Source: Deltaproteobacteria bacterium RIFCSPHIGHO2_12_FULL_43_9 (lineage in GTDB: Bacteria > Bdellovibrionota > O2-12-FULL-43-9). Taken from it: a DNA stretch of 32,030 bases. The position numbers and the translations under genes were made by a program. The stretch is from positions 1 through 32,030 of the forward strand of contig MGRR01000030.1 in assembly GCA_001798265.1 (NCBI GenBank). Direction: 5' to 3'. The notes beneath the pieces were generated by a model, which saw only the letters and a program-made list of their open reading frames with translations, made no database searches and was not told where the DNA came from. Of this stretch, positions 10,129-28,941 are shown one piece after another. How positions within the stretch are numbered: the stretch's first letter is position 1; each line of letters opens with the position of its first letter.

Positions 10129-10133
10129 TTTTC

Positions 10134-10180
10134 TAAATTATTATTTATGTAGAGTTACAGATTTCAGTGTATCTTTCTAG
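10134..10180 (+). pseudogene. Relic copy of the last ~16 codons of gene 6215..8011 (family C 3-prime end)
   Basis: 10134..10161 (taaattattatttatgtagagttacaga) matches 7962..7989 (taaattattatttatatagagttacaga) at 27 of 28 positions. In the same frame it reads NYYLCRVTDFSVSF-stop, against NYYLYRVTDPRVTLY-stop. Similarity decays towards each stop codon. Confidence 0.6.
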
Positions 10181-12144
10181 GGAATAGTGTTGGCGCAATC
10201 ACTGTCCTCTGACAGAGAGATCTCATATATTCTGAAAATGTCACCATCATTATTTACAGATAGAAATTCAATTTTATAATTTTTAAATTTGTCGCTCTTG
10301 GATATCTGGTAAATGCGACGTTCATAATCATTGGGGAGCCAATGTTCATTATCCCTGCTGTCCAGTAGAGTCCAACTACTGCTATTCTTGGAGCCAAGCA
10401 ATCTCCACGATTGTGGCATTCGATAATTAGCCTTATCTTCGCCAGATTCAATCGCGTAGCATTTAATGTGCCTACTTTCATTAAAACTAAAATTCAGTAT
10501 GAGTGGGAATTTTGTGACAAGCTCCCAGAATGTATAGAAGATGTGGTCTAGTGCCCTTTGAAGCCTGAAGGCAGGGTCTGAAGATCCAGAATGTGTTGCT
10601 ATGCCAACCAATTTAACGGTTGGTGCGTCTCGCATCGACATTGGGGGCTTTAGTATGTTCGATTTTTCGTGCAATTCCGGCTCTAAAAAGAATAGATTCT
10701 CCTTCTGTTCCGCAACAAGACTCTCGACGCGTGGATGAGCAATGATTCCAAAATACTTTTTAAGGATGTAGCCAACATGCCCACCGGATAGAATATATAG
10801 TGATTTAAGCTCTCCCCATCTTTGGCGTCCTAAGAGCAATGCCTTCGGGCGCACCTCAACTATAATATAAAACTCCTTGTCGGGTGCGAACTGTGTACGA
10901 ACCTGTTCAACAGCATATTCAAACTGCCTTGAGAGGGTTGTTGCCATGTACATGCTGGTGTTGAATGAAAAGATGCACCCAACAACCAGTAATCCTGCGA
11001 TAAGAAACCTTCTTATTGGAACTATAGAAATAAAATCTATAGATCTAAAGAGTACAAGGAGTATTGCTGCTGCACCAGGATGCCATACTCTATAAATAGA
11101 TGGTGGTTGACCGACAGCGACGAGCGCTGGAACATTCATTGAAAAAAAAATAAGAAACCAGAAGAACAAAAAGAGTACGGAGTCAGCTAATATTAACCTT
11201 AATGTAGACGCTTGATACTTTTTATAGAGACCGAACACAACCGTAATAACCATCAATATTAAAATGATTACTGCAACAACAGACGAAGGAACAGTATTGA
11301 ATAAATTCAACATCATTGGAAGAATGTTGCGAACGAATATCTTTAAATTGATCAGCATCGCTGTTGAAATATCAAACCGATACAATGAGCCATATGGTGG
11401 GTTTACAATATTGAAAAGATTCATTGCAACAAAACGGTGGAGCAGAAAATAAGAAAAGCAGACAATTCCAAAGAAAACAAAAGAGTAAAGTACCTGAGCC
11501 CTTACTTCACGCTTCTTAACACCGCTGTACATTATAGTGACAAGGGCTGGAAGCAGAAAAAAACCTACGGTTGGAGGGTAAATGAAAAGTACAGATAATA
11601 AAATGAGGAAGGATGCCATCAACTTAATTTGTGTTTTGTGTTCCCGGTTACGAAGGGATTTCCAGTCTGGAAAAATTGATATGGCGCAGAGTGTAGGAAT
11701 TATGGCGAATAGACCCGGTATGAAGTTGGCTGTACGGCCGATGTTGATTTGAGCTGTTGGTAGCAAGAATATTGCGGTGCCGAAGGCTGCGCTTGATAGC
11801 TTGCCCATCCCATTTTTTCTTGAAATGATGGAAATATAAATCGCACTTGCTGCGGCAAATGCCATACTGAATGCCCTTCCAAAGGTCAGGCTTCTGAGGT
11901 CGGTAAAGAACCACATGTAGATATTCTGCAAGAACCCCTGGAGAAAACGTCCGAATTGAATCAACACCGCCGTTTCTGTGTGCCCGGAACAGCACGATTT
12001 ATTGTTGTACGCCCAAACCTCAAAATCGTTGTGAAAACCAAAATCAAAGAATAAATAGGGAGAAAAACTTATAAACAACAGCGCCACTATCATGGCGTCG
12101 TAGGGTAAGCTTTCTTTAATAGAATCAAAACGTGAGCGGCGCAT
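10177..12144 (-). CDS. Large polytopic membrane protein, family D (singleton), with a soluble C-terminal region ending in a discoidin (F5/8 type C)-like carbohydrate-binding domain. Possible GT-C-like enzyme.
   Basis: 655-codon ORF with AAGGA 9 nt upstream of the ATG and 13 nt after the upstream stop. N-terminal loop reads FHNDFEVW...GRFLQG, followed by about 10 hydrophobic segments. C-terminus reads YRMPQSWRLLGSKNSSSWTLLD...YKIEF...FRIYEISL, which resembles the R-x-P-x-x-W-x-L-x-G-S-x-D-G-x-x-W pattern of discoidin domains. Confidence 0.55.
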   Translation of the reverse strand: MRRSRFDSIKESLPYDAMIVALLFISFSPYLFFDFGFHNDFEVWAYNNKSCCSGHTETAVLIQFGRFLQGFLQNIYMWFFTDLRSLTFGRAFSMAFAAASAIYISIISRKNGMGKLSSAAFGTAIFLLPTAQINIGRTANFIPGLFAIIPTLCAISIFPDWKSLRNREHKTQIKLMASFLILLSVLFIYPPTVGFFLLPALVTIMYSGVKKREVRAQVLYSFVFFGIVCFSYFLLHRFVAMNLFNIVNPPYGSLYRFDISTAMLINLKIFVRNILPMMLNLFNTVPSSVVAVIILILMVITVVFGLYKKYQASTLRLILADSVLFLFFWFLIFFSMNVPALVAVGQPPSIYRVWHPGAAAILLVLFRSIDFISIVPIRRFLIAGLLVVGCIFSFNTSMYMATTLSRQFEYAVEQVRTQFAPDKEFYIIVEVRPKALLLGRQRWGELKSLYILSGGHVGYILKKYFGIIAHPRVESLVAEQKENLFFLEPELHEKSNILKPPMSMRDAPTVKLVGIATHSGSSDPAFRLQRALDHIFYTFWELVTKFPLILNFSFNESRHIKCYAIESGEDKANYRMPQSWRLLGSKNSSSWTLLDSRDNEHWLPNDYERRIYQISKSDKFKNYKIEFLSVNNDGDIFRIYEISLSEDSDCANTIP

Positions 12145-12157
12145 CTTCTGATCCTTA

Positions 12158-14311
12158 CTATTGCGTTACCGGTCGGTCAACTCTCTTTTCAAGATCATCA
12201 ATGGAATGACCGACTAAGACTCTTTTATCACTGCCCGCTTTAAGGACTGTTTCGTTCAATGGTAGGTTGTCAGGGATTGCAAAGAATTTATCCTGATATC
12301 CGTACAATTGAAAACCTTGATAGGACTTCAGATACCAGGGTTTCCAAAATGTACTGTCTGGCAGGTAATCAGCAGCTGGAGAGACTTTAGGGTCAAGTAC
12401 GGTGTAGGCATAGTAGTCAACGGCAATCTCATTAAGAAAAGGTCTCTTAAATCGATCGTGACCAAAGTAGATGTCATTCTCAAGATCAGAGGTCCCCAAA
12501 AACAACATCTTCTCACGTGGTATAAAATTTCTAATCGGATCAATGAATGGAAATCTGGCAATAACGGAATGTATATGCCCAAGTGGGGCTACACTCACAC
12601 TTTTGCGGGTAATATATTTGTGTGCATGATAATTACCTTTATATGGTATAAATTCCTGCTCCATATTAAGCATGACAATCCGATGGGTTTTCATCTCCCT
12701 GCGGAGGAAATTTTCCAGCTCCATTGGTTTCTCTAATGTTCTCTCCGGTGGGACACCAGCACGAACGCTCCAATATGGTAAGATATGATCATTCGAATAG
12801 TAACGGATATCTTCAGCATGTAATGCGTTTGCAATAACAATTGTACCAGGAGGTGTATTGGTTCGAAACCAGTCAGCCATGTAGTGAATTCCCGAATAAA
12901 GCGATGTAATAGTCACATAGCTTCCGTACACGTTGAGGATTTGATCGAGAAGGCAAAGGATAATAATAGGAAAAAGAACCGCTCTTTTCCATGTTGTACG
13001 GCTTAAAGTGCCAATCCAGAAGTTTTCAGTTGCTGCTACGATGATGATCAGTGCTGGTACAAGTGGATAGACCAGATGAACATGCGCAGAAAATACCTTT
13101 AGGAATGGAAGAAAAGATAATAGAAACCATACAGCCAGAAAACCCAATTGGCGAATCTGAATCTTTTGGTCTTTGAAGTATTTACGAACAATTAAAAATA
13201 AAAGTATTCCACTGCAAACAACAGCAAGGGATATCATCGGTTGCTTCAATCTTAAAAATGCTAGAAGTCCGATTAACACGGGGAGCGCCCTGGCATCCCT
13301 TCTTAGAGAGAAGATAAGGGCTACACCCGACAGAACCCAGAATGTTGGGGGGAGGAGCAGAAGAAATACCCTACCTACGTCCCATTTCGCCTGTGAATAC
13401 AAATTCCAAAGAAATGATTTTATGTCGATAAAAGCCCCCATCTGTGAGCCAAGAGAGCCCAGCTCAAAGACTGGGCTTAGTGGTAACTTAGGCACAATAA
13501 GGTGGGGCAATGCTGTTGGGAAAATGGCATGCAATAAACCGAGCAGAGCCAAGACCAAAACAGGTGTCACACGACGATACCTATACAGTTCCATAAGTAT
13601 TATGAGCATCGTCACGATACCGATAAACTCACGTATCCATGGCCCAAGTAGGAGCACCGATGTTAGACAAATTCCCCAAAGCCAGCGATGTCGCTTAGAT
13701 TCTTCCATCTTCCGGTAAAACCAGAGTCCCATGCAGATAAAAAGTGGGACTAGAACCTGGATGCCTGAAAATATGACCCAGGCGCCTGTTATTACAGCCG
13801 GGGAACAAAAGAATAGTAGTAGGATTACGTATGCCGCCAGGTTTGTCTGGAGATATTCGCGTGCAATAAGGAAGAGAAAGAGTGCCAGCAATCCAAATAA
13901 AGAGGCAATAAAAAGCATCCATATTGTTTTGAGGTACTGCTTCGATTTTCCTGAGATGTGTGCTTCGGTAAACATTGAGACCCCTGTCAGCGCAAGGGCA
14001 GCGCCAAGCGGCCTATAGCCACCAAACTCCAGGCAGGAGAAAGATCTTGTAAGTATTGTTTCTGACAGTTTTGGAGCCCCCCAACGAAGACCATAAGCCC
14101 CCTCATCTCGACAAACCGGTGCGACACCAGGCTTTATCGTATCATCCTTAAAGCCATACGTATTTTCTGCTGTCTGAGGGCTGTCATTCCAGACAAGATC
14201 TTCAGTAGATCTGATTATAAAAAATGTGGTCGTGACCAGACAAAATATCAGTGCGAGGTGTAGATATCTTTTAAATCCATCCGTTGTTACGGATTTTTTA
14301 TATAGAGACAT
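12158..14311 (-). CDS. Large polytopic membrane protein, family C, long form (paralogue of 6215..8011). Putative GT-C-type glycosyltransferase with an extra C-terminal module.
   Basis: 717-codon ORF sharing the blocks listed for 6215..8011. Extra internal TM insert (ALPVLIGLLAFLRL...). Has a ~53-aa C-terminal extension, YQGFQLYGYQDKFFAIPD...SIDDLEKRV, related to the C-termini of family A proteins. Confidence 0.6.
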   Translation of the reverse strand: MSLYKKSVTTDGFKRYLHLALIFCLVTTTFFIIRSTEDLVWNDSPQTAENTYGFKDDTIKPGVAPVCRDEGAYGLRWGAPKLSETILTRSFSCLEFGGYRPLGAALALTGVSMFTEAHISGKSKQYLKTIWMLFIASLFGLLALFLFLIAREYLQTNLAAYVILLLFFCSPAVITGAWVIFSGIQVLVPLFICMGLWFYRKMEESKRHRWLWGICLTSVLLLGPWIREFIGIVTMLIILMELYRYRRVTPVLVLALLGLLHAIFPTALPHLIVPKLPLSPVFELGSLGSQMGAFIDIKSFLWNLYSQAKWDVGRVFLLLLPPTFWVLSGVALIFSLRRDARALPVLIGLLAFLRLKQPMISLAVVCSGILLFLIVRKYFKDQKIQIRQLGFLAVWFLLSFLPFLKVFSAHVHLVYPLVPALIIIVAATENFWIGTLSRTTWKRAVLFPIIILCLLDQILNVYGSYVTITSLYSGIHYMADWFRTNTPPGTIVIANALHAEDIRYYSNDHILPYWSVRAGVPPERTLEKPMELENFLRREMKTHRIVMLNMEQEFIPYKGNYHAHKYITRKSVSVAPLGHIHSVIARFPFIDPIRNFIPREKMLFLGTSDLENDIYFGHDRFKRPFLNEIAVDYYAYTVLDPKVSPAADYLPDSTFWKPWYLKSYQGFQLYGYQDKFFAIPDNLPLNETVLKAGSDKRVLVGHSIDDLEKRVDRPVTQ

Positions 14312-15260
14312 GGTAGTGCTTCCTATACCATTCTATTGTTTTGTCGATTCCATCATCCAATGCAATTTTTGGTTGCCAATCAAAAATAGTGTTTGCTTTT
14401 TCTAAATTAAGACACAATTTTGTTTTTATCGTGGGTTTCGATAAGTCATGATCTATCAGAAGTTGTTTACCGGAATGGAGGATATTTTTTGTTACCAATT
14501 CATTTATGGAGATTGATTTACCATAACCAACATTGCAGATTTCAAACCTGCTCTCCTGTCTGACAATTGCCAGCTCAACAAAGTCAATTAAATCATCGAC
14601 ATATATTAGATCCCGCTCCTCTTCTCCGCTTCCCCATATTATGATTTTATCACCATCATTAGCCTGCATAACCTTGGTAATGGTTGCACCAAAGACATGT
14701 GACTTTTCAAGGTCAAATTTATCGTGTGGGCCGTAAACATTTGAGTGTCTCATTACCGTATATTTCGTATTGCTTATACGGGAATAAAACTCACACATCT
14801 TTTCAATGTAAATCTTGGTCCACCCAACGCCAAAGTAGCTGGGAAATATCTCCAGGCTGGGATCAAAATCTGACTCCTTAATCGGAATATTGCTCGTTGG
14901 GTAAAAGACGGTACAGCTGAAGAAAAGAACGTGCCCAACATTATGTTCAAATGCCGATCTAAAAATTAGCGAGTTCATCACTGCATTGTCAGTGACATGA
15001 ATATAAGGTCGGGTTACAATATCTTTTGAGCCTGTTGTCGTTGCAGCTGCCTGAATAATAATATCCTTATCCTGGACCGCGGCATCGACCTCCTTTTTTG
15101 AGGTTAAATCTGCCTTGATCATTTTTATATTAGGTATTTTTAATGGTTCAGATTTAAAATATGTGCCATAGATTTCAAAATGCACATTCCGAGACAAGGA
15201 TTCAGCTATATTTCGCCCAATAAAACCGGTGCTCCCACAAATCAGTATCTTTTTCTTCAT
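14298..15260 (-). CDS. NAD(P)-dependent extended SDR, GDP-L-fucose-synthase-like sugar-nucleotide epimerase/reductase
   Basis: N-terminal Rossmann motif ILICGSTGFIGRNI. NVYGPHDKFDLEKSHVFGATITKV resembles the Fcl block NLYGPHDNF...SHVIPALL. ATGA overlap with the upstream gene. Confidence 0.7.
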   Translation of the reverse strand: MKKKILICGSTGFIGRNIAESLSRNVHFEIYGTYFKSEPLKIPNIKMIKADLTSKKEVDAAVQDKDIIIQAAATTTGSKDIVTRPYIHVTDNAVMNSLIFRSAFEHNVGHVLFFSCTVFYPTSNIPIKESDFDPSLEIFPSYFGVGWTKIYIEKMCEFYSRISNTKYTVMRHSNVYGPHDKFDLEKSHVFGATITKVMQANDGDKIIIWGSGEEERDLIYVDDLIDFVELAIVRQESRFEICNVGYGKSISINELVTKNILHSGKQLLIDHDLSKPTIKTKLCLNLEKANTIFDWQPKIALDDGIDKTIEWYRKHYHVSI

Positions 15261-16036
15261 CTTAATTCTTTCAAATAGAGATCTATATTTTCTTTTGATG
15301 TTCGCCTGAAGTGCGGCACTAATTCTGCAATCTTTGTGTTGTCTATTAATCCAACACTATAAGTGTGTGTTCCAAAGTTGGGTTTAGCCTGCAAAATTTC
15401 AGCTAAATCGGACAGTCGTATATTCTTGGAGCATGCAGCGTTATAAATCCCATTTAAATCATATTTAATCGAATATTTTATAAATTCCAGTATGTCTGCG
15501 TAGAGTACATAGTTAAATGTTGAATTTTGTGAAAGTGTAAGTGAGCAATTTTTATTTTCTAAAATCTGCATAAAGCTATTTTTTCTCATTTCCCTCCCCA
15601 GCAACGTTGCGGCCCTAATAATAAGATGATTCTTGCAAAATTGAAGTATAATTGATTCTGACATTAACTTGGTAATCCCATAAATCGTACTCAGTGCATC
15701 TACGTCTATAACTTCTGTTTCAAAATGTTTCTCGCTGTTTTTGGGGTATGTTTCTATAGATGATAAATAAATAAACTTTTTATGTGGAATATTGATCAGC
15801 TGTTTGGTTAAAAACACATTATCATTAATATAGTTGTATAAAATTTCAGAATTAACGACCCTGTTTCTGTTGCGTGCACAATGAATTATAATATCGACAC
15901 CACGTGCCTGCAGCTCTTCAATTTCTTCGGGGAGCGTTGCTCTGGTTAAGGAATGCCCGCCTAGTTCTTTATAAATATATTCTCCTATACCGCTAGTTGT
16001 GCCAACGGTAAGGATACTGAGATTTTTCATCATCAT
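15257..16036 (-). CDS. NAD(P)-binding SDR-family protein (short epimerase/reductase-like)
   Basis: GTTSGIGEYIY glycine-rich motif near the N-terminus, and a YGITK (YxxxK) motif. The ORF track starts at 16069. I prefer the ATG at 16036, which forms an ATGA overlap with the stop of 16033..16716. Confidence 0.6.
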   Translation of the reverse strand: MMMKNLSILTVGTTSGIGEYIYKELGGHSLTRATLPEEIEELQARGVDIIIHCARNRNRVVNSEILYNYINDNVFLTKQLINIPHKKFIYLSSIETYPKNSEKHFETEVIDVDALSTIYGITKLMSESIILQFCKNHLIIRAATLLGREMRKNSFMQILENKNCSLTLSQNSTFNYVLYADILEFIKYSIKYDLNGIYNAACSKNIRLSDLAEILQAKPNFGTHTYSVGLIDNTKIAELVPHFRRTSKENIDLYLKELR

Positions 16037-18175: not shown

Positions 18176-18229
18176 GTTCGGGTTCCTCTTCCCGGCACTC
18201 TTGTGCATTTAACAAAGGGTCGATGCTAT

Positions 18230-20051: not shown

Positions 20052-20130
20052 AAGTGATTAAATATAGGACAACCTAAAACTTTACAATATAGGCTTTGCA
20101 TATTATCAAATCACAAAGGCTGGAAGCGCA
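20052..20130. promoter_or_regulatory. 79-bp bidirectional control region between the two long divergent operons
   Basis: The only non-coding DNA between 18861..20051 (-) and 20131..20682 (+). Contains an 8-nt direct repeat aatatagg (20061..20068 and 20086..20093) and a 6-bp inverted pair gtgatt (20054..20059) / aatcac (20108..20113). No confident sigma-70 boxes. Confidence 0.35.
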
Positions 20131-21668: not shown

Positions 21669-21671
21669 CCA

Positions 21672-22916: not shown

Positions 22917-23458
22917 AGTTTATCAAGCAAGCCTTGCCCGATGTCTACTTAATTGAACCTGAGCCGGCAAAGGATCACCGCGGGTTACTGAGGCGGCACT
23001 TTTGCAAAAGGGAATTTGATCCATTCTATCCAATTCCAGATATTAATCAGAGCAATATTTCAGAGAACCTGAAAAAAAAGACATTAAGAGGGTTTCATTA
23101 TCAAAAGTCCCCACACGGGGAGTCTAGATTGATTTCATGTGTAAAGGGTGGTGTTTACGATATTGTGGTGGATCTAAGGCCTACTTCTAGAACATTTTGT
23201 AAATGGATCTCAACAGAGCTTACAGAAGATAATCGCCTGAGTCTTTTCGTACCTGATGGCTGTGCGAATGCCTTTCTTACGCTTGAAAATAATAGCTGGA
23301 TGCTCTATCTGCACACAGGATTTTATGTCCCCGGTTTTGAGGGGGGAGTAAGATACAACGATCCATATTTTAATTTTAAATGGCCGACTAAACCAGAGGT
23401 GATATCTGAAAGGGACGGCAACATTCCACTGTTTAATCCGGGCGATTTTTCCTTATGA
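22913..23458 (+). CDS. RmlC-like cupin, NDP-4-keto-6-deoxy-sugar 3,5- (or 3- / 5-) epimerase
   Basis: DHRG...F and LRGFHYQ motifs as in dTDP-4-dehydrorhamnose 3,5-epimerase. 181 aa. ATGA overlaps at both ends. Confidence 0.75.
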   Translation: MKFIKQALPDVYLIEPEPAKDHRGLLRRHFCKREFDPFYPIPDINQSNISENLKKKTLRGFHYQKSPHGESRLISCVKGGVYDIVVDLRPTSRTFCKWISTELTEDNRLSLFVPDGCANAFLTLENNSWMLYLHTGFYVPGFEGGVRYNDPYFNFKWPTKPEVISERDGNIPLFNPGDFSL

Positions 23459-24363
23459 ATATATTAATTTCAGGTGCAAATGGTTTTATAGGCCGACATG
23501 TTGTCGACTCAATCGCAGGGAATCATAATCTGGCTCTGATTCTTCGCAACCTGGGTAGCCAGGGATTCAAGCCTGATAATGTAACCAATATTATCGGTTC
23601 ATTGGAGAATATAGCGGAAGTTCAGAAAGAAATAATTAATTTTTCGCCAGATGCCTGCATTCATCTTGCGTGGGATGGTATTCCCGATTTTTCCGCAAAA
23701 AGGTCACTTTCCAATTTAAATCTCTCGGTCAGTTTGCTGGATATGCTTATTGAAAACACGAATTGTAAGAAATATATTATTACAGGTTCCTGCTATGAAT
23801 ATGGCAATGCTTCTGGTGAATGCAGGGAATCAGACCCCGCAAAATTCGATTCCTTTATCGGATGGGCCAAACATTCCATTAATCAATATGCTACCTTACG
23901 GTGTCTGGAAAAGGGATTAAAGTTATATTGGCTGAGATGTTTTTATGTTTTTGGGTCTGGGCAGAGGAATGCTTCAATTATACCGTCAATTATCAGTGCC
24001 TTTCTAAAGAATGAAACACCGATAATAAAGAACCCGTTCAACGCGAACGATTTTGTTCATGTTAAAGATATATCACGGGCAATCCGGCTTATTTTGGAGC
24101 GCGATCCCGAGGGTGGTATTTACAATCTCGGTTCCGGACAAGCCACCCAAATAGTGAAAATATGTGAGATTATAGAGAGAAAGATTTGCAACTCGACGAC
24201 ATTTTCAGATAGCCTGTTGAATCTAAATAAAGATATGCATAGCAGGGGCTTTTGGGCCGATATTACGAAAGCAAAAAAATATTTTGGGTGGGAGCCGTAT
24301 TTAACGATCGAAGAAGGGATCGAAGAACTTCTTGGGTCAATTAAACGTGAAATGAGATGGTAA
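23455..24363 (+). CDS. NAD(P)-dependent extended SDR, probable NDP-4-keto-sugar reductase
   Basis: ILISGANGFIGRHV Rossmann motif. 302 aa. Located immediately after the dehydratase/C-MT/epimerase genes. The expected YxxxK position reads IGWAK (see findings). Confidence 0.6.
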   Translation: MNILISGANGFIGRHVVDSIAGNHNLALILRNLGSQGFKPDNVTNIIGSLENIAEVQKEIINFSPDACIHLAWDGIPDFSAKRSLSNLNLSVSLLDMLIENTNCKKYIITGSCYEYGNASGECRESDPAKFDSFIGWAKHSINQYATLRCLEKGLKLYWLRCFYVFGSGQRNASIIPSIISAFLKNETPIIKNPFNANDFVHVKDISRAIRLILERDPEGGIYNLGSGQATQIVKICEIIERKICNSTTFSDSLLNLNKDMHSRGFWADITKAKKYFGWEPYLTIEEGIEELLGSIKREMRW

Positions 24364-25364
24364 CAAATAAACAAAAGCTAATTTCCATTGTGTGTCCAAT
24401 CTATAATGAAGAGCATACTATTCCTATTTTCTATAAGAGATTAACTAAGGTAATTGCTTCATTGTCTCATGTGTACAAATTCGAATTAATATTCACCAAT
24501 AATAGATCGACGGACAAAAGCCTCGAACGAATTCTTGAGCTGCGGAATCGGGACACATCAATGCAGGTCATAACGATGTCAAGAAACTTTGGATATCAGG
24601 CATCTGTACAGGCAGGCATAACCCATGCCACTGGTGAAGCAATTGTGATTATAGATGTCGATTGTGAAGATCCACCAGAGATGATCCCTGGATTCCTTGA
24701 GAAGTGGGCCGAGGGTTACGACATAGTATGTGGAATAAGAAAAGACAGACCAGAGGCCTGGATTATGAAGAAATTAAGGGATTGCTTCTATTATCTTCTG
24801 AAGATGACCGCGGATATGGATATTGTTCTTAGAATGGCGGAGTTTGGTTTAATCTCATCAACGGTACGCGATTGCATTGTAAATAATCATAATACATTCC
24901 CATTCTTAAGAGCCGAAATTGGGTACGTAGGATTTTCAAGGTATGAAATTCCATATACAAGGGAGCCAAGAAGTTATGGCAAGTCTGGGTACAATCTATT
25001 GGGGATGGTTATATTTGCAACTGCCGGGCTTTTAACTTCCTCTACGTTTCTATTTAGGTTAGCTGCGTATTTGCTTCCATTTATTGTCTTTACTAATCTT
25101 GTCCTTGTTTTATTGGGACTAATAACGCACTCATTGTCATATTTCCTTGTATTATTTTCCCTAGATCTTCTCTATATTATTTTTTATATGACCGTGCATG
25201 GGGTTTACATTGCCAGAATTTATAAAAATGACATAAGGCGTCCGATTTATATTATTGATCCCAAATTAACATTTCTTAATCAGGAGAATGTCAGACAAAG
25301 TTTTGTCGCCAAGCCTGTACCTAGGCATTTTCAAGAGGCGGGTGAGGTTCATGGAATTCAATGA
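24357..25364 (+). CDS. GtrB/ArnC-like family 2 glycosyltransferase (polyprenyl-phosphate sugar synthase) with two C-terminal TM helices
   Basis: SIVCPIYNEE...SRNFGYQASVQAG...AIVIIDVDCEDPPEMIP...WAEGYDIVCGIR.DR matches the GtrB/ArnC/CsbB pattern. Two hydrophobic helices follow, then the RRPIYII tail. Confidence 0.8.
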   Translation: MVTNKQKLISIVCPIYNEEHTIPIFYKRLTKVIASLSHVYKFELIFTNNRSTDKSLERILELRNRDTSMQVITMSRNFGYQASVQAGITHATGEAIVIIDVDCEDPPEMIPGFLEKWAEGYDIVCGIRKDRPEAWIMKKLRDCFYYLLKMTADMDIVLRMAEFGLISSTVRDCIVNNHNTFPFLRAEIGYVGFSRYEIPYTREPRSYGKSGYNLLGMVIFATAGLLTSSTFLFRLAAYLLPFIVFTNLVLVLLGLITHSLSYFLVLFSLDLLYIIFYMTVHGVYIARIYKNDIRRPIYIIDPKLTFLNQENVRQSFVAKPVPRHFQEAGEVHGIQ

Positions 25365-26244
25365 AGTAAATTGCCCCGTCTGTGAAAAAAATGATTATAA
25401 GGTTGTATATCCCGGTACCCTTGGAAAGAATGCCCCGGTATTCGGGTATAAATGGACACCAGAAATACGGAAAATATATCGCCTGGTCCAGTGTAAAAAC
25501 TGCTCGCATGCTTATGCATCACCACGATTGAGTGATATTTATAAATATTATGAAGATGTTAAAGATGAAACCTATTTGAATAATGCAGGTTTAAGAAAAA
25601 AAACGGCAAGAAAGGTTTTGACCACGATCAAAAAGTTCAAGCCTGACGGCAAATTACTTGATGTAGGCTGTTCAACTGGAGATTTTTTGGAGGTTGCGAA
25701 GGAAGATTATGAATCAGAAGGCATGGAGCTTTCAGAATGGGCGTTAAAAATTGCCCGCGAGAAACAACTTTTGGTGTATAAGGAGACTCTGCGGGATAGG
25801 GCTGCGGCATGTAGGGCCTCGTATGATGTGGTGACGATGTGGGGTGTTATTGAGCATCTGGAATATCCCAAATTAGAGATCCAGCGCATTAATAGCCTGT
25901 TAAAGGAGGGTGGTATTGTCGCTCTCTGGACCGGAGATTTTAACTCAATCTTTTCTAAAATTTTCAGACAGAAGTGGTGGTATATTCTAGGACAGCATAT
26001 CCAGTTTTTTAGTTGGAAATCGATGGATTATTTAATGGAAGAGGCTGGATTCCAGAGGGTTCATAAAGGTATTTATCCATACGTAATATCATTTGAGTAC
26101 CTCGGTGTTTCTCTTTCTAGATATTCAATTGTCGGCCCTCTTGTCAGGAATTTTTTTAAATTATATGGTCTTGCGGCGCAAGAATTTACATTAAAAAAAT
26201 CTGACGAGATGTTTGCAATTTATAAAAAGGTTAGGAACAACTAG
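25351..26244 (+). CDS. Class I SAM-dependent methyltransferase with an N-terminal Cys4 zinc-ribbon
   Basis: CPVCEK...CKNCSHAY ribbon and LLDVGCSTGDFLE (SAM motif I). Start moved from 25288 to the ATG at 25351, which has GGTGAGG 5 nt upstream and reduces the overlap with the GT2 gene to 14 nt. Confidence 0.7.
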   Translation: MEFNEVNCPVCEKNDYKVVYPGTLGKNAPVFGYKWTPEIRKIYRLVQCKNCSHAYASPRLSDIYKYYEDVKDETYLNNAGLRKKTARKVLTTIKKFKPDGKLLDVGCSTGDFLEVAKEDYESEGMELSEWALKIAREKQLLVYKETLRDRAAACRASYDVVTMWGVIEHLEYPKLEIQRINSLLKEGGIVALWTGDFNSIFSKIFRQKWWYILGQHIQFFSWKSMDYLMEEAGFQRVHKGIYPYVISFEYLGVSLSRYSIVGPLVRNFFKLYGLAAQEFTLKKSDEMFAIYKKVRNN

Positions 26245-26257
26245 CAGATTGGTAATC

Positions 26258-27178
26258 ATGAAATCTTGTCCAATATGTAATTCTTCAGAGACTAATGCAA
26301 TATTAAAATCAGAAAAAGAATTCCTTTCTAATACTATATTTGATATTCGCGAATGCTTTGAATGTGGTGTCTCATATACAGATCCACGACCTGATAATCT
26401 CGACCCATATTATCCCACAAATTATCGGGGTTATAATTTTGTAATCAACAAGTTGTTAAAAATGTTTTACCAGGGAAGAATTAATGGATGGACAAGGAGG
26501 TTTAAAAAGCCCGGGAAGGTACTGGAAATCGGTTGCGGACCCGGGTATATGCTTGATGTTTTTCGTAAAAAAGGATGGCGGGTGCTGGGTCTTGAAAGGT
26601 CGGCTGATACAGCCAGATATGCACAAGAGGTTCTTGGGCTCGATGTTTTTGTCGGGGACATCGATTTGATCCCTGAGAAAAGGGAATATGATTTAATTAT
26701 CATTTTTAACGTTCTCGAGCATGTTACTGACCCAACTACTATTTTACGGGGATGCGCAAAACGTTTAAAACCCGAAGGAACTTTAATAATAAATATCCCT
26801 AATATTAACAGCTTACAGGCAAGATATGCAGGCTCCCACTGGTCGCATCTTGATCCACCGAGGCACCTTTTCTATTTTACGCCGAAATCATCGGAGAATA
26901 TACTGTCAAAATGTGGACTTACAATAAATGATATCAAATACAATTCATTTGAATTTGATTCATTTGGTTGGTTACAAAGTTTAATAAATAAGATAACGGG
27001 ACATTATAATGTATTCGCATTGTATCTAATGGGAATTGAACCATTTAGTCGAAAGGTAGTGTTAGCAATGGCTTTGTCTTTTTTTCTTATAATTCCATCA
27101 TGTGTTTTATCAATTGTGGGGAGGCTCACTAAAAGTGGTGCGCTCATGCAGGTGAGTGCCCGGCCGAACTTATTATGA
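26258..27178 (+). CDS. Class I SAM-dependent methyltransferase with an N-terminal Cys4 zinc-ribbon and a C-terminal TM anchor
   Basis: CPICNS...CFECGVSY ribbon and VLEIGCGPGYMLDVF (SAM motif I). C-terminal hydrophobic stretch VVLAMALSFFLIIPSCVLSIVG. Start chosen at the ATG at 26258 (MKSCPICN), not 26213. Confidence 0.7.
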   Translation: MKSCPICNSSETNAILKSEKEFLSNTIFDIRECFECGVSYTDPRPDNLDPYYPTNYRGYNFVINKLLKMFYQGRINGWTRRFKKPGKVLEIGCGPGYMLDVFRKKGWRVLGLERSADTARYAQEVLGLDVFVGDIDLIPEKREYDLIIIFNVLEHVTDPTTILRGCAKRLKPEGTLIINIPNINSLQARYAGSHWSHLDPPRHLFYFTPKSSENILSKCGLTINDIKYNSFEFDSFGWLQSLINKITGHYNVFALYLMGIEPFSRKVVLAMALSFFLIIPSCVLSIVGRLTKSGALMQVSARPNLL

Positions 27179-28941
27179 TCCAGCAGAAGCACCGAAATAG
27201 TTATGGATATATTCTTATACTTTTGTATGTAGCATTACATTACATCTCTATAAGCGGAATATATCTTCAATTTACAAGGGATGTACTCCCATCGGGTGAT
27301 CCATTTACTTATACCGTCGGTTTTTTTAATCTCCTTGATCTTGCACGGAAAGATTTCTGGGAAGCACTTCATCGTGCTTTTACCTCAAACTGGTACTGGC
27401 TTATCAACATCCAGACTGTACTCTTTTCACCAATTTTAATTAAGGAGCCATTCTCGATAGCTATTGTAAATTACATAATGTGGGCCTTGGCCAGCATATC
27501 AATGTTCAGGCTTTGTCGCTTAATAGAGCTTGATTTTGTATTCTCGTTTTTGGCTACATTTTTAATCTGGTTTTTCCCGATTAATTTTGGCTTTTTGGAC
27601 TATACATCGATGCCGGTTCTTGGCCTCGATTCTATATTCTTTGCTGCCCTGCAGATGGCGCTCTTCAATACTTTTATTTATGCACTTGATCCGCAGAAAT
27701 TAAAGAATGCAATTATTGCAGGGCTTTCTTTTGGTATTGCAGTGTGGGGTAGAGGGAATTCTCTCATTGTTGTCGGTATGACAATTTTTTTACCCATACT
27801 CGTTGTTTTTATACAGCTTTTAAAGACCAGGAGAAAGCAGCTGATTATTCCATTCTTTATGTTTGCAATTATAAGCATTGCAATGACATCTATTTATTTC
27901 ATTCTTCAAGGCGGGGGGATTGTTGGTTATTATGGTCATCACGCAAATTTTGTGACGAGACACGCTTGGAATGTGCATGACGCGATGCCATATTTTAATA
28001 ATTTACCAGGATTTTTCATCTGGAGAGATGAGAATTCAGTCCCAACAATCTTAATTACTATATTACTCCATATTATGACTGTTGTGAGTCTGGTAATGTC
28101 ATTTAAGAACAGGAAAAAAAGCAAATTATATAGCACACTCTATTTTATATGCGTCACAGGTGTATTTATATATGTCACAACATACCTTATTAATATCATT
28201 TTCTTCACCGATCCCCTTATGACCATCTATAACTGCCTGTTAATTTATGCACCAATGCGTATAGGAATTACGCTTTCACTCTTCACCTTGTTGGCAACCC
28301 TAGTTTTAAATAGAAAAATATTACTGAAGCCGTGGTTGTTAATTTTAGGTTTCATCATTTTTATTTCATATGGAATTATTTTTACAAAGCATAACACACC
28401 TAAATCAATTTTCCCGCCGTTTGCATCGAAGGTGGAGGCTGTTGCCAAAAATATAGATGAGATTTTAGAGGGGAAATCGCTCAGTATGTTTTGGTATCAA
28501 TCATACAGCCCTAGGATATTAAACTATTACAGAGTAAAAAATAGTCAGCCTGAAATCAATTTCTATATGAACAGATATTATAATGATATCTGGCAGCAAT
28601 ACGACTACTCAGAGTCAAAGCGTTTAAAGGTTCGTGAGGAGCTGAAAAATCATTTTGAAGAGGCCTCAATAATTCTTATCCCTGAGTATGTTGATTATTT
28701 CAATAGCCATTTCGCGACTGCATTTGCTGTAATGAAGGATGAGTTTCCAAAATACTTGAATTCCTCTGCCAGTAAACAATTTGTTGTGCGTGGAGTCCTT
28801 CAGGACCGAGATGGTATGAGGCTTTTATTGCTGCAGCGAAAAACCGAGGCAAAGGGTCGTGGAGAGCCGCTTAAATTGCCATATGGACTTTCAACTGATG
28901 CCATTAAGGTAGATTATGGTGAAAAGGTTATTAGGTTTTAA
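27175..28941 (+). CDS. Large polytopic membrane protein, family B (paralogue of 2381..4141)
   Basis: 588-codon ORF with an ATGA overlap with the preceding methyltransferase gene. Shared blocks are listed under 2381..4141. Confidence 0.6.
   Translation: MIQQKHRNSYGYILILLYVALHYISISGIYLQFTRDVLPSGDPFTYTVGFFNLLDLARKDFWEALHRAFTSNWYWLINIQTVLFSPILIKEPFSIAIVNYIMWALASISMFRLCRLIELDFVFSFLATFLIWFFPINFGFLDYTSMPVLGLDSIFFAALQMALFNTFIYALDPQKLKNAIIAGLSFGIAVWGRGNSLIVVGMTIFLPILVVFIQLLKTRRKQLIIPFFMFAIISIAMTSIYFILQGGGIVGYYGHHANFVTRHAWNVHDAMPYFNNLPGFFIWRDENSVPTILITILLHIMTVVSLVMSFKNRKKSKLYSTLYFICVTGVFIYVTTYLINIIFFTDPLMTIYNCLLIYAPMRIGITLSLFTLLATLVLNRKILLKPWLLILGFIIFISYGIIFTKHNTPKSIFPPFASKVEAVAKNIDEILEGKSLSMFWYQSYSPRILNYYRVKNSQPEINFYMNRYYNDIWQQYDYSESKRLKVREELKNHFEEASIILIPEYVDYFNSHFATAFAVMKDEFPKYLNSSASKQFVVRGVLQDRDGMRLLLLQRKTEAKGRGEPLKLPYGLSTDAIKVDYGEKVIRF

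What the first reader, a model, noticed from the sequence alone, without database searches (positions are those of the whole stretch)
10177..28941. Two divergent operons that read like parallel modules (tailored NDP-sugar to polyprenyl-P-sugar to extracytoplasmic GT-C transfer), with no classical polysaccharide assembly or export genes
Each operon combines four elements:
- SDR-type sugar-nucleotide tailoring enzymes.
- One GT2 enzyme: 16033..16716 is soluble and Dpm1-like; 24357..25364 is GtrB/ArnC-like with two TM helices.
- At least one cobalamin-type radical SAM enzyme.
- One or two very large polytopic membrane proteins: 12158..14311 and 10177..12144 in one operon, 27175..28941 in the other.

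In 32 kb the only Leloir-type glycosyltransferases I recognise are those two GT2s. I see no GT1/GT4 enzyme, no WecA/WbaP-type initiating transferase, and no Wzx, Wzy, Wzz, Wzm/Wzt or WaaL signature.

Established systems pair a GT2 lipid-phosphate-sugar synthase with a GT-C enzyme to decorate an acceptor outside the membrane: GtrA/B/C, ArnC/ArnT, CsbB/YfhO and Ppm1/Pmt. Here there are seven candidate membrane transferases in the window for two donor synthases. That ratio is far above those precedents. It suggests either stepwise extracytoplasmic glycan assembly or multi-site decoration of a protein (S-layer type) or envelope polymer with unusual methylated sugars.

The acceptor and the lipid carrier are unknown.
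Basis: partly seen in the sequence, partly recalled or inferred. Interest (0 to 1): 0.75.

Follow-up and report, generated by a model that had tools for sequence, protein, structure and literature searches.

The report
Heptose lipid-sugar pathway with many GT-C transferases
This groundwater bacterium has a large gene cluster that appears to make unusual methylated seven-carbon sugars, load them onto membrane lipid carriers and attach them outside the cell using at least eleven large membrane enzymes from four unannotated families.

Summary
Window 10177-28941 contains two divergent operons, and each has the four listed elements.

What I could test of the interpretation mostly held:
- **GT2 enzymes.** Their only close solved relatives are polyprenyl-phosphate glycosyltransferases (GtrB, ArnC, DPMS).
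- **Membrane families B (M2, M7) and C (M4, M6).** AlphaFold models match only GT-C enzymes (PglB, STT3, AftA, ArnT, Pmt, ALG). Wzy, WaaL and transporter folds do not appear.
- **Family D (M5).** It carries a C-terminal discoidin-type sugar-binding domain and has weak GtrII similarity.
- **Family A (M1, M3).** It shares its C-terminal domain with family C.
- **All four families.** Each keeps a conserved Asp just after TM1, where GT-C enzymes have their catalytic Asp.

- The operons are not independent. One GDP-heptose pathway (GmhA, HddA, GmhB-HddC) is split between them.
- The + operon runs on to at least 32030.
- The full locus holds 11 such membrane proteins and 3 GT2s.
- A high ratio of GT-C enzymes to donors has precedents in mycobacterial arabinan assembly and the ER.

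The + operon cassette is syntenic in an Omnitrophica MAG and one other genome. The acceptor, flippase and chemistry remain inferred.

Verdict: a new variant of a known kind, with four unannotated GT-C families. Interest is moderate to high.

The parts
100..2301 (-). M1, family A large polytopic membrane protein (733 aa), a putative GT-C. It carries an in-frame insertion of about 70 aa that looks like a repeat element.
   Evidence: Paralog of M3 and of M0. Conserved H-x-P-R-x-D motif after TM1 and an F-R-P motif. C-terminal domain homologous to that of family C (hhalign 97.4%). No Pfam or NCBIfam hit.
2381..4141 (+). M2, family B GT-C-fold membrane protein (586 aa).
   Evidence: 45% identical to M7 over its full length. 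It is a row of alignment A1, which gave the GT-C model.
4119..6212 (+). M3, family A membrane protein (697 aa), a putative GT-C.
   Evidence: One family member hits PMT_4TMC at E 3e-4.
6215..8011 (+). M4, family C GT-C-fold membrane protein (598 aa). It is identical to hypothetical protein A3F16_00670 of Deltaproteobacteria bacterium RIFCSPHIGHO2_12_FULL_43_9.
   Evidence: 49% identical to M6. 100% identical to P0069.
8047..9522 (-). B12-binding radical SAM enzyme. The called gene is 491 aa; the TTG-started ORF that runs to 9654 is probably too long.
   Evidence: Pfam B12-binding plus Radical_SAM. Gene call in L009.
10177..12144 (-). M5, family D. The N-terminal polytopic domain is a putative GT-C with weak GtrII similarity. 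The C-terminal domain is a discoidin / F5-8 type C (CBM32-like) sugar-binding module at about residues 510-650.
   Evidence: Pfam GtrII at E 0.075, aligned over 270 residues. Among 42 homologs, 2 hit GtrII (5.9e-5), 1 hits DUF6056 and 17 hit F5_F8_type_C. The family profile hits the CBM of GH92 mannosidase 7nsn at E 3.6e-37.
12158..14311 (-). M6, family C GT-C-fold membrane protein (717 aa).
   Evidence: AF2 model with pLDDT 79 and pTM 0.82. The top 17 Foldseek PDB hits are all GT-C: AftA, STT3, PglB, AglB, Pmt1. Invariant D43 after TM1 and invariant G-Y-R-P at 98-101.
14298..15260 (-). SDR enzyme resembling GDP-L-fucose synthase (3,5-epimerase/4-reductase type).
   Evidence: Pfam Epimerase. 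Best NCBIfam hit GDPFucSynFcl at E 1e-40, below the curated cut-off.
15257..16069 (-). Short SDR-family protein.
   Evidence: Pfam Epimerase at E 1e-11. No NCBIfam hit.
16033..16716 (-). Soluble GT2 of the Dpm1/AglJ type, a putative polyprenyl-phosphate sugar synthase.
   Evidence: Best NCBIfam hits are AglJ and dolichyl-phosphate hexose transferase. The only PDB relatives are DPMS 5mlz (8e-15) and ArnC. No TM segment.
16709..18208 (-). B12-binding radical SAM enzyme.
   Evidence: Homologs at 36-39% identity recur beside HddA-like and HddC-like genes in L011, L012, L014, L020 and L034.
18230..18877 (-). Kinase of the PRK / uridine-kinase family; substrate unknown.
   Evidence: A PRK-family gene also precedes the cassette in L014.
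18861..20051 (-). Fusion of a sugar-1-phosphate nucleotidyltransferase (HddC-like) with a HAD phosphatase (GmhB-like).
   Evidence: NCBIfam GmhB E 2e-43 (residues 235-381) and HddC E 1e-23 (residues 7-186).
20131..20682 (+). SIS-domain sedoheptulose-7-phosphate isomerase (GmhA-like).
   Evidence: NCBIfam gmhA at E 4e-23, below the curated cut-off.
20679..21668 (+). GDP-sugar 4,6-dehydratase/reductase-type SDR, probably a GDP-heptose 4,6-dehydratase.
   Evidence: The PDB hits Rmd 2pk3 (1.6e-55) and C. jejuni GDP-D-glycero-D-manno-heptose 4,6-dehydratase 7us5 (4e-49) rank well above ordinary GMDs at about 1e-29.
21672..22916 (+). NDP-4-keto-sugar 3-C-methyltransferase.
   Evidence: Pfam Methyltransf_13 and Methyltransf_14. 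PDB hits MtmC 4rv9 (6e-52), TcaB9 and a further sugar 3-C-methyltransferase, 5t64.
22913..23458 (+). RmlC-type 3,5-epimerase.
23455..24363 (+). SDR, a putative 4-ketoreductase.
24357..25364 (+). Membrane-anchored GT2 of the GtrB/ArnC/PgfS type, a putative polyprenyl-phosphate sugar synthase.
   Evidence: NCBIfam PgfS 1.7e-44 and ArnC 3e-31. PDB GtrB 5ekp at 1.5e-40 over residues 8-301, and ArnC. TM segments at residues 214-280.
25351..26244 (+). Class I SAM methyltransferase.
   Evidence: Start taken from the gene call.
26258..27178 (+). Class I SAM methyltransferase with one C-terminal TM helix.
   Evidence: A homolog lies directly upstream of the family B gene in L005.
27175..28941 (+). M7, family B GT-C-fold membrane protein (588 aa).
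   Evidence: AF2 model with pLDDT 90.7 and pTM 0.87. The top 15 Foldseek PDB hits are all GT-C: PglB at E 5e-6, STT3, AftA, DPY19, ArnT, ALG12, Pmt4, ALG3, EmbB. Invariant P39-x-G41-D42 lies at the start of the first helix after TM1.
29033..30049 (+). Radical SAM enzyme without a B12 domain.
30069..31520 (+). B12-binding radical SAM enzyme.
   Evidence: Conserved inside the cassette in L004 at 57% identity. L014 has a 483-aa B12-radical SAM gene at the same position.
31536..32030 (+). 5' part of a GHMP kinase (HddA-like heptose-7-phosphate kinase). It is cut by the window end at a scaffold gap.
   Evidence: The intact copy, L003:12125-13117, hits NCBIfam HddA at E 2e-53.

Best explanation
The locus is a lipid-carrier-dependent glycosylation system that acts outside the cytoplasmic membrane.

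**Step 1 (inferred from best family hits).** GmhA, HddA and the GmhB-HddC fusion convert sedoheptulose-7-phosphate into GDP-D-glycero-alpha-D-manno-heptose. These genes are split between the two divergent operons.

**Step 2 (inferred).** The + operon tailors this sugar with a 4,6-dehydratase, a 3-C-methyltransferase, a 3,5-epimerase and a 4-reductase. The product would be a branched 6-deoxy-heptose. The - operon has an Fcl-like SDR and a second SDR that would make a different variant.

**Step 3 (homology shown, substrate inferred).** Three GT2 enzymes load the sugars onto polyprenyl phosphate at the cytoplasmic face. One is GtrB-like and two are Dpm1/AglJ-like; the third lies just outside the window.

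**Step 4 (speculative in timing and site).** Two SAM methyltransferases, one of them membrane-anchored, and the radical SAM enzymes add further methyl or other modifications.

**Step 5 (unknown).** The lipid-linked sugars are flipped across the membrane by a flippase not encoded in the locus.

**Step 6 (fold shown for families B and C, inferred for A and D).** At least 11 GT-C-type transferases from four families transfer the sugars to an acceptor outside the membrane, using the conserved Asp after TM1. The discoidin-type sugar-binding domains suggest the acceptor is itself a glycan. The many paralogous transferases suggest several different linkages, so I favour stepwise building or multi-site decoration of a heptose-rich methylated surface glycan.
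For: **GT2 enzymes.**
- 24357-25364 matches GtrB 5ekp at 1.5e-40 over its full length including the TM region, and matches ArnC. Its best NCBIfam hits are PgfS and ArnC.
- 16033-16716 matches only DPMS and ArnC in the PDB. Its best NCBIfam hits are AglJ and Dol-P-hexose transferase.

**GT-C fold.**
- The M7 model (pLDDT 90.7) has GT-C enzymes as its top 15 PDB matches, all at probability 0.98-1.00. MFS transporters and GPCRs begin at rank 16 at probability 0.3 or below; a few weaker GT-C hits (Pmt, GPI mannosyltransferase, AftB) are scattered among them.
- The M6 model has GT-C enzymes as its top 17 matches.

**Catalytic motif.** Every family has an invariant or nearly invariant Asp just after TM1, at alignment residues 38-43:
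- Family B: D42.
- Family C: D43.
- Family D: D40.
- Family A: D38.

In the M7 model D42 starts the first helix after TM1. This is where GT-C(A) enzymes carry their essential Asp (PMC12041299, PMC7801869). Family C also has the paired [ND]D and G-Y-R-P motifs that correspond to the DD and SHKSYRP motifs of TMTC loop EL1 (PMC7801869).

**Sugar-binding modules.** M5 and its homologs carry a discoidin/CBM32-like domain. Longer family B homologs carry one too. GT-C enzymes with a CBM have precedents in GT136, Emb and AftD (PMC11127046).

**Heptose route.** GmhA, GmhB, HddC and HddA are the best family hits for their genes. The dehydratase ranks next to the C. jejuni GDP-heptose 4,6-dehydratase. 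The C-methyltransferase matches sugar 3-C-methyltransferases.

**Conserved neighbourhoods.**
- The whole + cassette (GmhA, dehydratase, C-MT, RmlC, SDR, GtrB-like GT2, MT, B12-rSAM, MT, HddA, family B) is syntenic in an Omnitrophica MAG at 42-67% identity (L004).
- It is also syntenic in GCA_040961635.1, where a recognised PMT_2 plus F5/8 GT-C gene follows it (L014).
- In 10 of 16 related loci of at least 7 kb (14 found with family C, 2 with family B), a Dpm1-like or GtrB-like GT2 lies in the fetched locus, within 10 kb of the family B or C gene.

**Absence of classical genes.** There is no Leloir GT1/GT4, initiating transferase, Wzx, Wzy, WaaL or ABC exporter in the window or in 14.7 kb of flanks. 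The left flank ends in housekeeping genes.
Against: - Nothing here is biochemical. The donor, carrier, acceptor and linkages are all inferred.
- Every heptose-pathway hit scores below its NCBIfam curated cut-off, so the nucleotide and the sugar could differ. RmlC and C-methyltransferase relatives usually act on dTDP-sugars.
- No GtrA, SMR, MATE or DedA flippase is present in the locus.
Their TM domains show no profile similarity to families B or C.
- None of the four families reaches any Pfam or NCBIfam GT-C model, and no family profile finds a GT-C chain in the PDB by sequence; the only significant profile hits are sugar-binding modules, for family D.
- Foldseek TM-scores are modest, at 0.32-0.52.
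- The last 4 kb of the source contig was not retrieved.
- A relative's locus has an ABC-2 transporter nearby (L013). A conventional polymer made elsewhere could therefore be the acceptor.
Confidence: 0.68

Rival explanations
1. The system only decorates a polymer made elsewhere. On this reading the GT-C enzymes do not build a glycan. Each adds single side-chain sugars to a conventional polysaccharide, LPS or teichoic-type polymer assembled by genes at another locus, as in Gtr, Arn, CsbB/YfhO and GT136 three-component systems.
For: - The pairing of a GtrB-like GT2 with a GT-C is exactly the known decoration scheme (PMC11127046).
- CBM-bearing GT-C enzymes bind pre-formed polymers (PMC11127046).
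- A family C relative lies near an ABC-2 transporter pair (L013).
- The locus has no primer or initiating enzyme.
Against: - Eleven transferases in four families for three donor synthases is far more than in any of the decoration systems compared here (Gtr, Arn, CsbB/YfhO, Pgf, GT136), which I recall as having one or two GT-C enzymes per donor.
- No flippase gene accompanies them.
- The nearest precedents for such a ratio are assembly systems: mycobacterial arabinan (PMC12041299) and, from my own knowledge, the ER ALG pathway.
Confidence: 0.22
2. The system is protein O-glycosylation. On this reading the GT-C enzymes act like Pmt, TMTC or PgfM and transfer the modified sugars to Ser/Thr of S-layer or other envelope proteins.
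For: - The GT2 24357-25364 scores best against PgfS, part of a streptococcal protein-glycosylation machinery (PMC11092751).
- Family C has DD-like and YRP motifs like TMTC O-mannosyltransferases (PMC7801869).
- One family A member hits PMT_4TMC.
- PglB/STT3 are among the best structural matches in both searches: they top the family B list and rank second and third for family C, after AftA.
Against: - No candidate acceptor protein is encoded in the locus.
- Discoidin/CBM32-type modules point to sugar rather than peptide recognition.
- The PglB/STT3 matches have modest TM-scores. Neither the WWD motif nor the MIR and TPR domains of known protein glycosyltransferases were detected.
Confidence: 0.07
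3. The large membrane proteins are not glycosyltransferases. They would instead be polymerases or ligases (Wzy/WaaL-like), transporters or flippases that merely share a many-helix architecture.
For: - No sequence model of any GT-C family is reached.
- Families A and D were not modelled.
- A flippase function is otherwise missing from the locus.
Against: - Fold searches for families B and C return GT-C enzymes only at high probability. Transporters score at probability 0.3 or below, and no Wzy, WaaL or SEDS hit appears.
- The Asp after TM1 is conserved in all four families.
- Family D homologs hit GtrII and DUF6056.
Confidence: 0.03

Closest known systems
Mycobacterial arabinan and mannan assembly (DPA or PPM donors with EmbA/B/C, AftA-D, PimE, Mpt enzymes)
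   Same: - Many GT-C enzymes of several families share one or a few polyprenyl-phosphate monosaccharide donors and build a glycan outside the membrane.
- Some of them carry CBMs.
- AftA is the top structural match for family C and among the top matches for family B (PMC12041299, PMC11127046).
   Different: - The donor here would come from GT2 enzymes acting on a nucleotide sugar, not from PRPP via a UbiA-type enzyme.
- The sugars are heptose-derived and methylated.
- The families have no detectable sequence similarity to Emb, Aft or GT87 models.
- The organisms are uncultured Gram-negative lineages.
- The primer and acceptor are unknown.
Three-component periplasmic glycosylation systems (GtrA/B/C, ArnC/ArnT, CsbB/YfhO, PgfS/PgfM, and the GT136 system of Citrobacter)
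   Same: - A GtrB/ArnC/PgfS-like GT2 with C-terminal TM helices sits in an operon with a GT-C-fold enzyme.
- GT136 also carries a C-terminal CBM (PMC11127046).
   Different: - No flippase gene is present.
- There are 11 GT-C-type genes for 3 GT2s, instead of the one or two per donor that I recall for those systems.
- The locus includes dedicated biosynthesis of an exotic donor sugar and several radical SAM enzymes.
- There is no adjacent polymer-synthesis locus.
GDP-heptose tailoring pathways of Campylobacter jejuni capsules and the Aneurinibacillus thermoaerophilus S-layer glycan
   Same: - The GmhA/HddA/GmhB/HddC set is followed by a GDP-heptose 4,6-dehydratase, an epimerase and a reductase.
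- The dehydratase here ranks next to C. jejuni 7us5 and A. thermoaerophilus Rmd 2pk3 (PMC10680097).
   Different: - From my own knowledge, those sugars are used directly by cytoplasmic Leloir transferases.
- Here the only transferases are polyprenyl-phosphate GT2s and GT-C enzymes.
- A 3-C-methyltransferase and B12-radical SAM enzymes are added.
ER-lumenal ALG3/9/12/6/8/10 enzymes and archaeal AglJ/AglS steps
   Same: Dpm1/AglJ-like synthases feed several GT-C enzymes. ALG3 and ALG12 are among the structural matches for family B.
   Different: - Those enzymes extend a lipid-pyrophosphate-linked oligosaccharide that was started in the cytoplasm.
- No such initiating machinery or oligosaccharyltransferase signature is seen in this locus.

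Membership tests
GT-C fold glycosyltransferases (GT-C(A) class) | A polytopic N-terminal domain of 7-13 TM helices, a cytoplasmic N-terminus and an extracytoplasmic soluble domain. | tested here: met
   All seven window proteins and the four extra ones show 8-14 hydrophobic peaks followed by a soluble C-terminus of about 170-250 aa. Their N-termini are rich in Lys/Arg. The models show TM1, two short helices, then further TM helices.
GT-C fold glycosyltransferases (GT-C(A) class) | Three-dimensional similarity to solved GT-C enzymes. | tested here: met
   Family B (M7): the top 15 PDB hits are all GT-C, with E down to 5e-6 and TM-scores of 0.26-0.52. Family C (M6): the top 17 are all GT-C, with E down to 5e-4.
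GT-C fold glycosyltransferases (GT-C(A) class) | A conserved, catalytically essential Asp at the tip of the first juxtamembrane helix after TM1. | tested here: met
   Invariant D42 in family B, D43 in family C and D38 in family A; D40 is at least 90% conserved in family D. In the M7 model D42 starts helix 42-59, directly after TM1. The position matches the description in PMC12041299 and PMC7801869. Catalytic essentiality cannot be tested here.
GT-C fold glycosyltransferases (GT-C(A) class) | Sequence membership of an existing GT-C family model (PMT, PMT_2, DUF1736/TMTC, STT3, ArnT, YfhO, GT87, Arabinose_trans, GtrII). | tested here: not met
   No window protein reaches any such model. Weak traces only: M5 against GtrII at E 0.075; 2 of 42 family D homologs against GtrII at 5.9e-5 and 1 against DUF6056; 1 of 6 family A members against PMT_4TMC at 3e-4; 12 of 22 family C members against DUF6798 at E 0.036 or weaker. 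Profile searches of PDB sequences found no GT-C chain.
GT-C fold glycosyltransferases (GT-C(A) class) | Transfer from a polyprenyl-phosphate-linked sugar to an acceptor outside the membrane. | not testable with these tools
   This requires enzyme assays or lipid analysis.
Three-component Gtr/Arn-type periplasmic glycosylation systems | A GT2 polyprenyl-phosphate sugar synthase. | tested here: met
   GtrB 5ekp at 1.5e-40 over the full length, plus ArnC and PgfS, for 24357-25364. DPMS, ArnC and AglJ for 16033-16716. This is homology only.
Three-component Gtr/Arn-type periplasmic glycosylation systems | A dedicated flippase gene (GtrA, SMR, MATE or similar) in the locus. | tested here: not met
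   No such Pfam or NCBIfam hit among the window proteins scanned. The precomputed Pfam columns for the flank genes list none either. No small hydrophobic ORF was seen among the ORFs of at least 100 aa, or in the 9600-10200 gap at 40 aa or more. A DedA/VTT gene does lie next to the GT2 in a relative's locus (L012).
Three-component Gtr/Arn-type periplasmic glycosylation systems | One or two GT-C enzymes per donor, acting on a polymer made by an adjacent or known pathway. | tested here: not met
   The locus has 11 GT-C-type genes for 3 GT2s and no polymer pathway.
Wzy / WaaL / Wzx / ABC-exporter polysaccharide assembly | Sequence or fold match of the membrane proteins to polymerase, ligase, flippase or exporter families. 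| tested here: not met
   No Pfam or NCBIfam hit. Neither fold search places Wzy, WaaL or SEDS in its top 50. The flippase WzxE appears only at probability 0.02.
GDP-D-glycero-alpha-D-manno-heptose pathway (GmhA, HddA, GmhB, HddC) | All four activities are encoded and assignable to the equivalog families. | tested here: inconclusive
   All four are the best or near-best NCBIfam hits: gmhA 4e-23, HddA 2e-53, GmhB 2e-43, HddC 1e-23. Every score is below the curated cut-off. The HddA gene is cut by a scaffold gap in the window and is intact in L003.
TMTC/PMT-clan O-mannosyltransferases | A DD motif and an SHKSYRP motif in loop EL1, plus the DUF1736 loop and TPR domain. | tested here: inconclusive
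   Family C has V-W-[ND]-D and then G-Y-R-P some 43-56 residues later. Family A has R-x-D and then F-R-P. These match the motif pattern in PMC7801869. No DUF1736, PMT or TPR hit was found.

The most novel reading that the evidence does not exclude
This would be a previously unrecognised glycan assembly line outside the membrane, spread across several bacterial phyla (Omnitrophota, Desulfobacterota-like lineages, Alphaproteobacteria, Nitrospinota).

In it, heptose-derived, C- and O-methylated sugars would travel on polyprenyl phosphate. To my knowledge no such polyprenyl-phosphate heptose donor class has been described. Four new GT-C families would link them into a surface polymer without any cytoplasmic Leloir transferase, initiating transferase, Wzx/Wzy or ABC exporter. 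That would make it a Gram-negative counterpart of mycobacterial arabinan synthesis.

B12-radical SAM enzymes might act on the lipid-linked sugars.
Probability: 0.3. Interest if true: 0.8.

Novelty: new variant of a known kind. Interest (0 to 1): 0.58.

Why it matters
- **New enzyme families.** Four membrane-protein families with no Pfam or NCBIfam annotation would be added to the GT-C glycosyltransferases. Two are supported by structure prediction.
- **A new use for heptoses.** GDP-heptose tailoring would be linked to lipid-phosphate carriers. So far, to my knowledge, such sugars are known only as direct donors for cytoplasmic transferases.
- **A wider principle.** It would show that building or heavily decorating a glycan outside the membrane with many GT-C enzymes is not restricted to mycobacteria and eukaryotes.
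- **Testability.** The conserved cassette gives a compact, transferable set of genes for experiments. Nitrospina gracilis 3/211, a named strain with a 3.07-Mb genome record, carries a family B relative.
- **Practical value.** New GT-C enzymes and methylated heptose donors would interest glycoengineers and anyone interpreting the cell envelopes of uncultured groundwater bacteria.

Tried and rejected
- **Profile searches against PDB sequences.** Family profiles A1, A2 and A4 found no GT-C chain. A3 found only sugar-binding modules.
- **Profile-profile comparison of TM domains.** hhalign between the families was not significant: B vs C at 1.2%, A vs B at 18%, and for D vs B or C only the C-terminal modules aligned. 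The four families therefore cannot be merged by sequence.
- **Comparison with a recognised GT-C.** hhalign of families D and A against the TM part of the PMT_2 protein in L014 gave nothing. A single-sequence template is too weak for this.
- **Lenient Pfam scans of all family members.** These gave only weak traces.
- **Promoter and terminator scan of the divergent intergenic region.** It gave no more than chance.
- **Fetching the last 4 kb of the source contig.** An exact-match scan of the JGI metagenome collection found nothing.
- **Genome collection.** The source MAG was not among the loci returned by the genome scan.
- **Taxonomy look-up.** The MAG name was rejected for its characters.
- **Literature searches.** I found no description of these families or of polyprenyl-phosphate heptose donors.
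- **Readings rejected.** Wzy/WaaL/transporter identity is rejected by the fold searches. Two self-contained parallel modules are rejected because the heptose pathway is split between the operons.

Full report
**1. What is in the sequence**

It comes from a 43,031-bp scaffold of a Rifle groundwater metagenome (ENA ANAN16-1 scaffold_1777). The protein at 6215-8011 is 100% identical to hypothetical protein A3F16_00670 of 'Deltaproteobacteria bacterium RIFCSPHIGHO2_12_FULL_43_9'.

Pfam confirms the soluble enzymes.

The - operon (20051 to 10177) contains, in order:
- a nucleotidyltransferase-HAD fusion,
- a PRK-family kinase,
- a B12-radical SAM enzyme,
- a GT2,
- two SDRs,
- the membrane proteins M6 and M5.

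The + operon (from 20131) contains, in order:
- a SIS isomerase,
- a GMD-like SDR,
- a C-methyltransferase,
- an RmlC-like epimerase,
- an SDR,
- a GT2 with TM helices,
- two methyltransferases,
- the membrane protein M7.

The window ends inside that kinase gene at a scaffold gap.

**2. The membrane proteins**

The seven large proteins are polytopic and have soluble C-terminal domains. They fall into four families:

| Family | Window members | Identity within pair |
|---|---|---|
| A | M1, M3 | 27% |
| B | M2, M7 | 45% |
| C | M4, M6 | 49% |
| D | M5 | singleton |

None reaches any Pfam or NCBIfam model. The only trace is a sub-threshold GtrII match for M5.

They are conserved genes. Family B has 48 relatives, including one in Nitrospina gracilis 3/211. 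Family C has 30, family A has only 4, and family D has 1145 representative clusters.

*Family B.* An AlphaFold model of M7 built on a 32-sequence alignment is confident (pLDDT 90.7, pTM 0.87). Its 15 best PDB matches are all GT-C enzymes: PglB, STT3, AftA, DPY19, ArnT, ALG12, Pmt4, ALG3 and EmbB. From rank 16 the list is dominated by transporters and receptors at probability 0.3 or below, with a few weaker GT-C hits among them.

*Family C.* The M6 model (pLDDT 79) likewise has 17 GT-C enzymes at the top. No Wzy, WaaL or SEDS protein appears in either list.

*Conserved Asp.* All four families keep an Asp just after TM1, at alignment residues 38-43: B D42, C D43, A D38 and D D40. In the M7 model D42 begins the first helix after TM1. 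GT-C(A) enzymes carry their essential Asp at this position (PMC12041299, PMC7801869). Family C also has V-W-[ND]-D followed by G-Y-R-P, which resembles the DD and SHKSYRP motifs of TMTC loop EL1 (PMC7801869).

*Family D.* The family profile matches discoidin/CBM32-type sugar-binding modules over its C-terminal region, about residues 510-650 of M5: E 3.6e-37 to the CBM of GH92 mannosidase 7nsn, and 17 of 42 homologs hit F5_F8_type_C. Longer family B homologs carry the same module.

*Family A.* Its C-terminal domain is homologous to that of family C (hhalign 97.4%, E 1e-11).

In summary, the GT-C fold is shown by prediction for families B and C. For families A and D it is inferred from architecture, motif, shared domains and weak hits to GtrII, DUF6056 and PMT_4TMC.

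**3. The GT2 enzymes**

- 24357-25364 aligns over its full length, including the TM region, with GtrB (5ekp, 1.5e-40) and with ArnC. Its best family hit is PgfS.
- 16033-16716 has no TM segment. In the PDB it matches only DPMS and ArnC, and among families it matches AglJ and Dol-P-hexose transferase.

**4. The sugar**

The best family hits identify four enzymes:
- GmhA at 20131-20682.
- A GmhB-HddC fusion at 18861-20051.
- HddA, whose 5' part lies at 31536-32030 and which is intact in L003.

This is the GDP-D-glycero-alpha-D-manno-heptose route. All scores are below the curated cut-offs, so the assignment is probable rather than secure.

The tailoring enzymes fit this route:
- The SDR at 20679-21668 ranks beside Rmd (2pk3) and the C. 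jejuni GDP-heptose 4,6-dehydratase (7us5), about 20 orders of magnitude better than ordinary GMDs.
- 21672-22916 matches sugar 3-C-methyltransferases.
- An RmlC-type epimerase and an SDR follow.
- The - operon has an Fcl-like SDR.

Because the activation genes are split between the operons, the two operons depend on each other. They are not parallel self-sufficient modules.

**5. The full locus**

To the right of the window the contig carries:
- a third Dpm1/AglJ-like GT2,
- two more family C proteins (M8, M10),
- a second family D protein (M9).

To the left lie a third family A protein (M0) and a DAO oxidoreductase, followed by housekeeping genes: a sigma-54 activator, a MurA-family enzyme and PrmC. 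These mark the border of the locus.

The locus therefore holds at least 11 GT-C-type genes (A x3, B x2, C x4, D x2) and 3 GT2s. It has no GT1/GT4, no initiating transferase, no Wzx/Wzy/WaaL, no ABC exporter and no recognisable flippase. About 4 kb at the far right end could not be retrieved.

**6. Relatives elsewhere**

- The whole + cassette is syntenic in Omnitrophica bacterium RIFCSPLOWO2_12_FULL_44_17, at 42-67% identity (L004).
- It is also syntenic in GCA_040961635.1, where a recognised PMT_2 plus F5/8 GT-C gene follows it (L014).
- An alphaproteobacterial MAG has three family B genes with the GtrB-like GT2, the C-methyltransferase, RmlC and methyltransferases (L006).
- Among the 16 related loci of at least 7 kb (14 found with family C, 2 with family B), 10 contain a Dpm1-like or GtrB-like GT2.
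- HddA-like, HddC-like and B12-radical SAM genes recur in these loci.
- The Dpm1-like GT2 is 70-75% identical across these metagenomes, while the adjacent GT-C is only 29-38% identical. That fits a conserved donor with diverging acceptor specificity.

**7. Mechanism**

The best-supported model has six steps:
1. GDP-heptose is synthesised.
2. It is tailored in the cytoplasm by dehydration, C-methylation, epimerisation and reduction.
3. GT2 enzymes transfer it to polyprenyl phosphate.
4. Methyltransferases and radical SAM enzymes modify it further. The stage at which this happens is unknown.
5. An unidentified flippase moves it across the membrane.
6. The GT-C enzymes transfer it to an acceptor outside the membrane.

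The sugar-binding modules suggest the acceptor is a glycan. Whether the system builds a polymer or decorates one cannot be decided from sequence. The number and diversity of the transferases and the lack of any other assembly gene lean towards stepwise assembly. A relative with an ABC-2 transporter nearby keeps the decoration rival alive.

**8. Comparison and novelty**

The logic is that of known lipid-phosphate-sugar and GT-C systems (PMC11127046). The high transferase-to-donor ratio has precedents. One donor, DPA, serves AftA, EmbA/B/C, AftB and AftC in mycobacteria (PMC12041299), and AftD is a further arabinofuranosyltransferase (10.1101/2019.12.22.885152). From my own knowledge, the ER is another such case.

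Four things are new:
- four GT-C-type families without any family model;
- the likely heptose-derived, C-methylated donors on a lipid carrier;
- the association with several B12-radical SAM enzymes;
- a conserved, apparently mobile cassette found in several phyla.

I found no description of these in the paper library. I rate it a new variant of a known kind, with interest 0.58.

Noticed in passing
window 1686-1905 (- strand, inside M1): M1 carries an in-frame insertion of about 70 aa that is absent from all five other family A members. It is made of short inverted and direct repeats (CGTCATTGCGAG / CTCGCAATGACG, CGAGATTGCTTC) and looks like a small repeat element inserted into a loop. Peptides of similar flavour end the third GT2 and occur near L001:19802-20143.
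   Followed up: partly
window 31536-32030; L001:14362-15343; L003:12125-13117: The window ends at a run of N (a scaffold gap) inside the HddA-like GHMP kinase gene. The gene is intact (330 aa) on another assembly of the same region.
   Followed up: yes
L001:15411-16187 and loci L012, L020, L031, L034, L036: The third Dpm1/AglJ-like GT2 lies just outside the window. It is 70-75% identical to GT2s next to family C genes in unrelated metagenomes, while those family C proteins are only 29-38% identical. The donor synthase is unusually conserved and the transferases diverge fast.
   Followed up: partly
C-termini of M1 (window 100-300), M3 (6020-6212) and M6 (12158-12360); also M0 in L009: A terminal module of about 60 aa (Y-x-G-F-x-L ... 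[FY]-A-[IV]-P ... S-[LI]-E-E-L) is shared by family A, by M6 but not M4, and by some family D homologs (hhalign 96.8%). It has no family assignment and its function is unknown.
   Followed up: partly
window 9730-10128 (+): A 132-aa soluble ORF lies between the B12-radical SAM gene and M5. It is also called as a gene on other assemblies. It has no Pfam or NCBIfam match.
   Followed up: no
window 8047-9654, 25288-26244, 26213-27178: The mechanical ORF starts are probably too far upstream. Gene calls on the same DNA give 491 aa (8047-9522), 297 aa (25351-26244) and 306 aa (26258-27178).
   Followed up: yes
L011 (Nitrospina gracilis 3/211, HG422173.1 566160-588334); L012; L014:17134-22283; L020; L034: A second gene set recurs next to family B or C genes in other organisms: a B12-radical SAM enzyme, a GHMP kinase and an SDR in most of these loci, with an NTP-transferase in L011, L020 and L034. 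In the three loci with Pfam annotation (L011, L012, L014) a TPP-dependent E1/transketolase-like pair also occurs, and L011 and L012 add a DegT aminotransferase. It may make a different branched or amino sugar.
   Followed up: no
L012:7358-8041: A DedA/VTT-domain gene sits directly beside the Dpm1-like GT2 in a relative's locus. From my own knowledge, DedA-family proteins have been linked to polyprenyl-phosphate translocation. A homolog elsewhere in the source genome could be the missing flippase or recycler.
   Followed up: no
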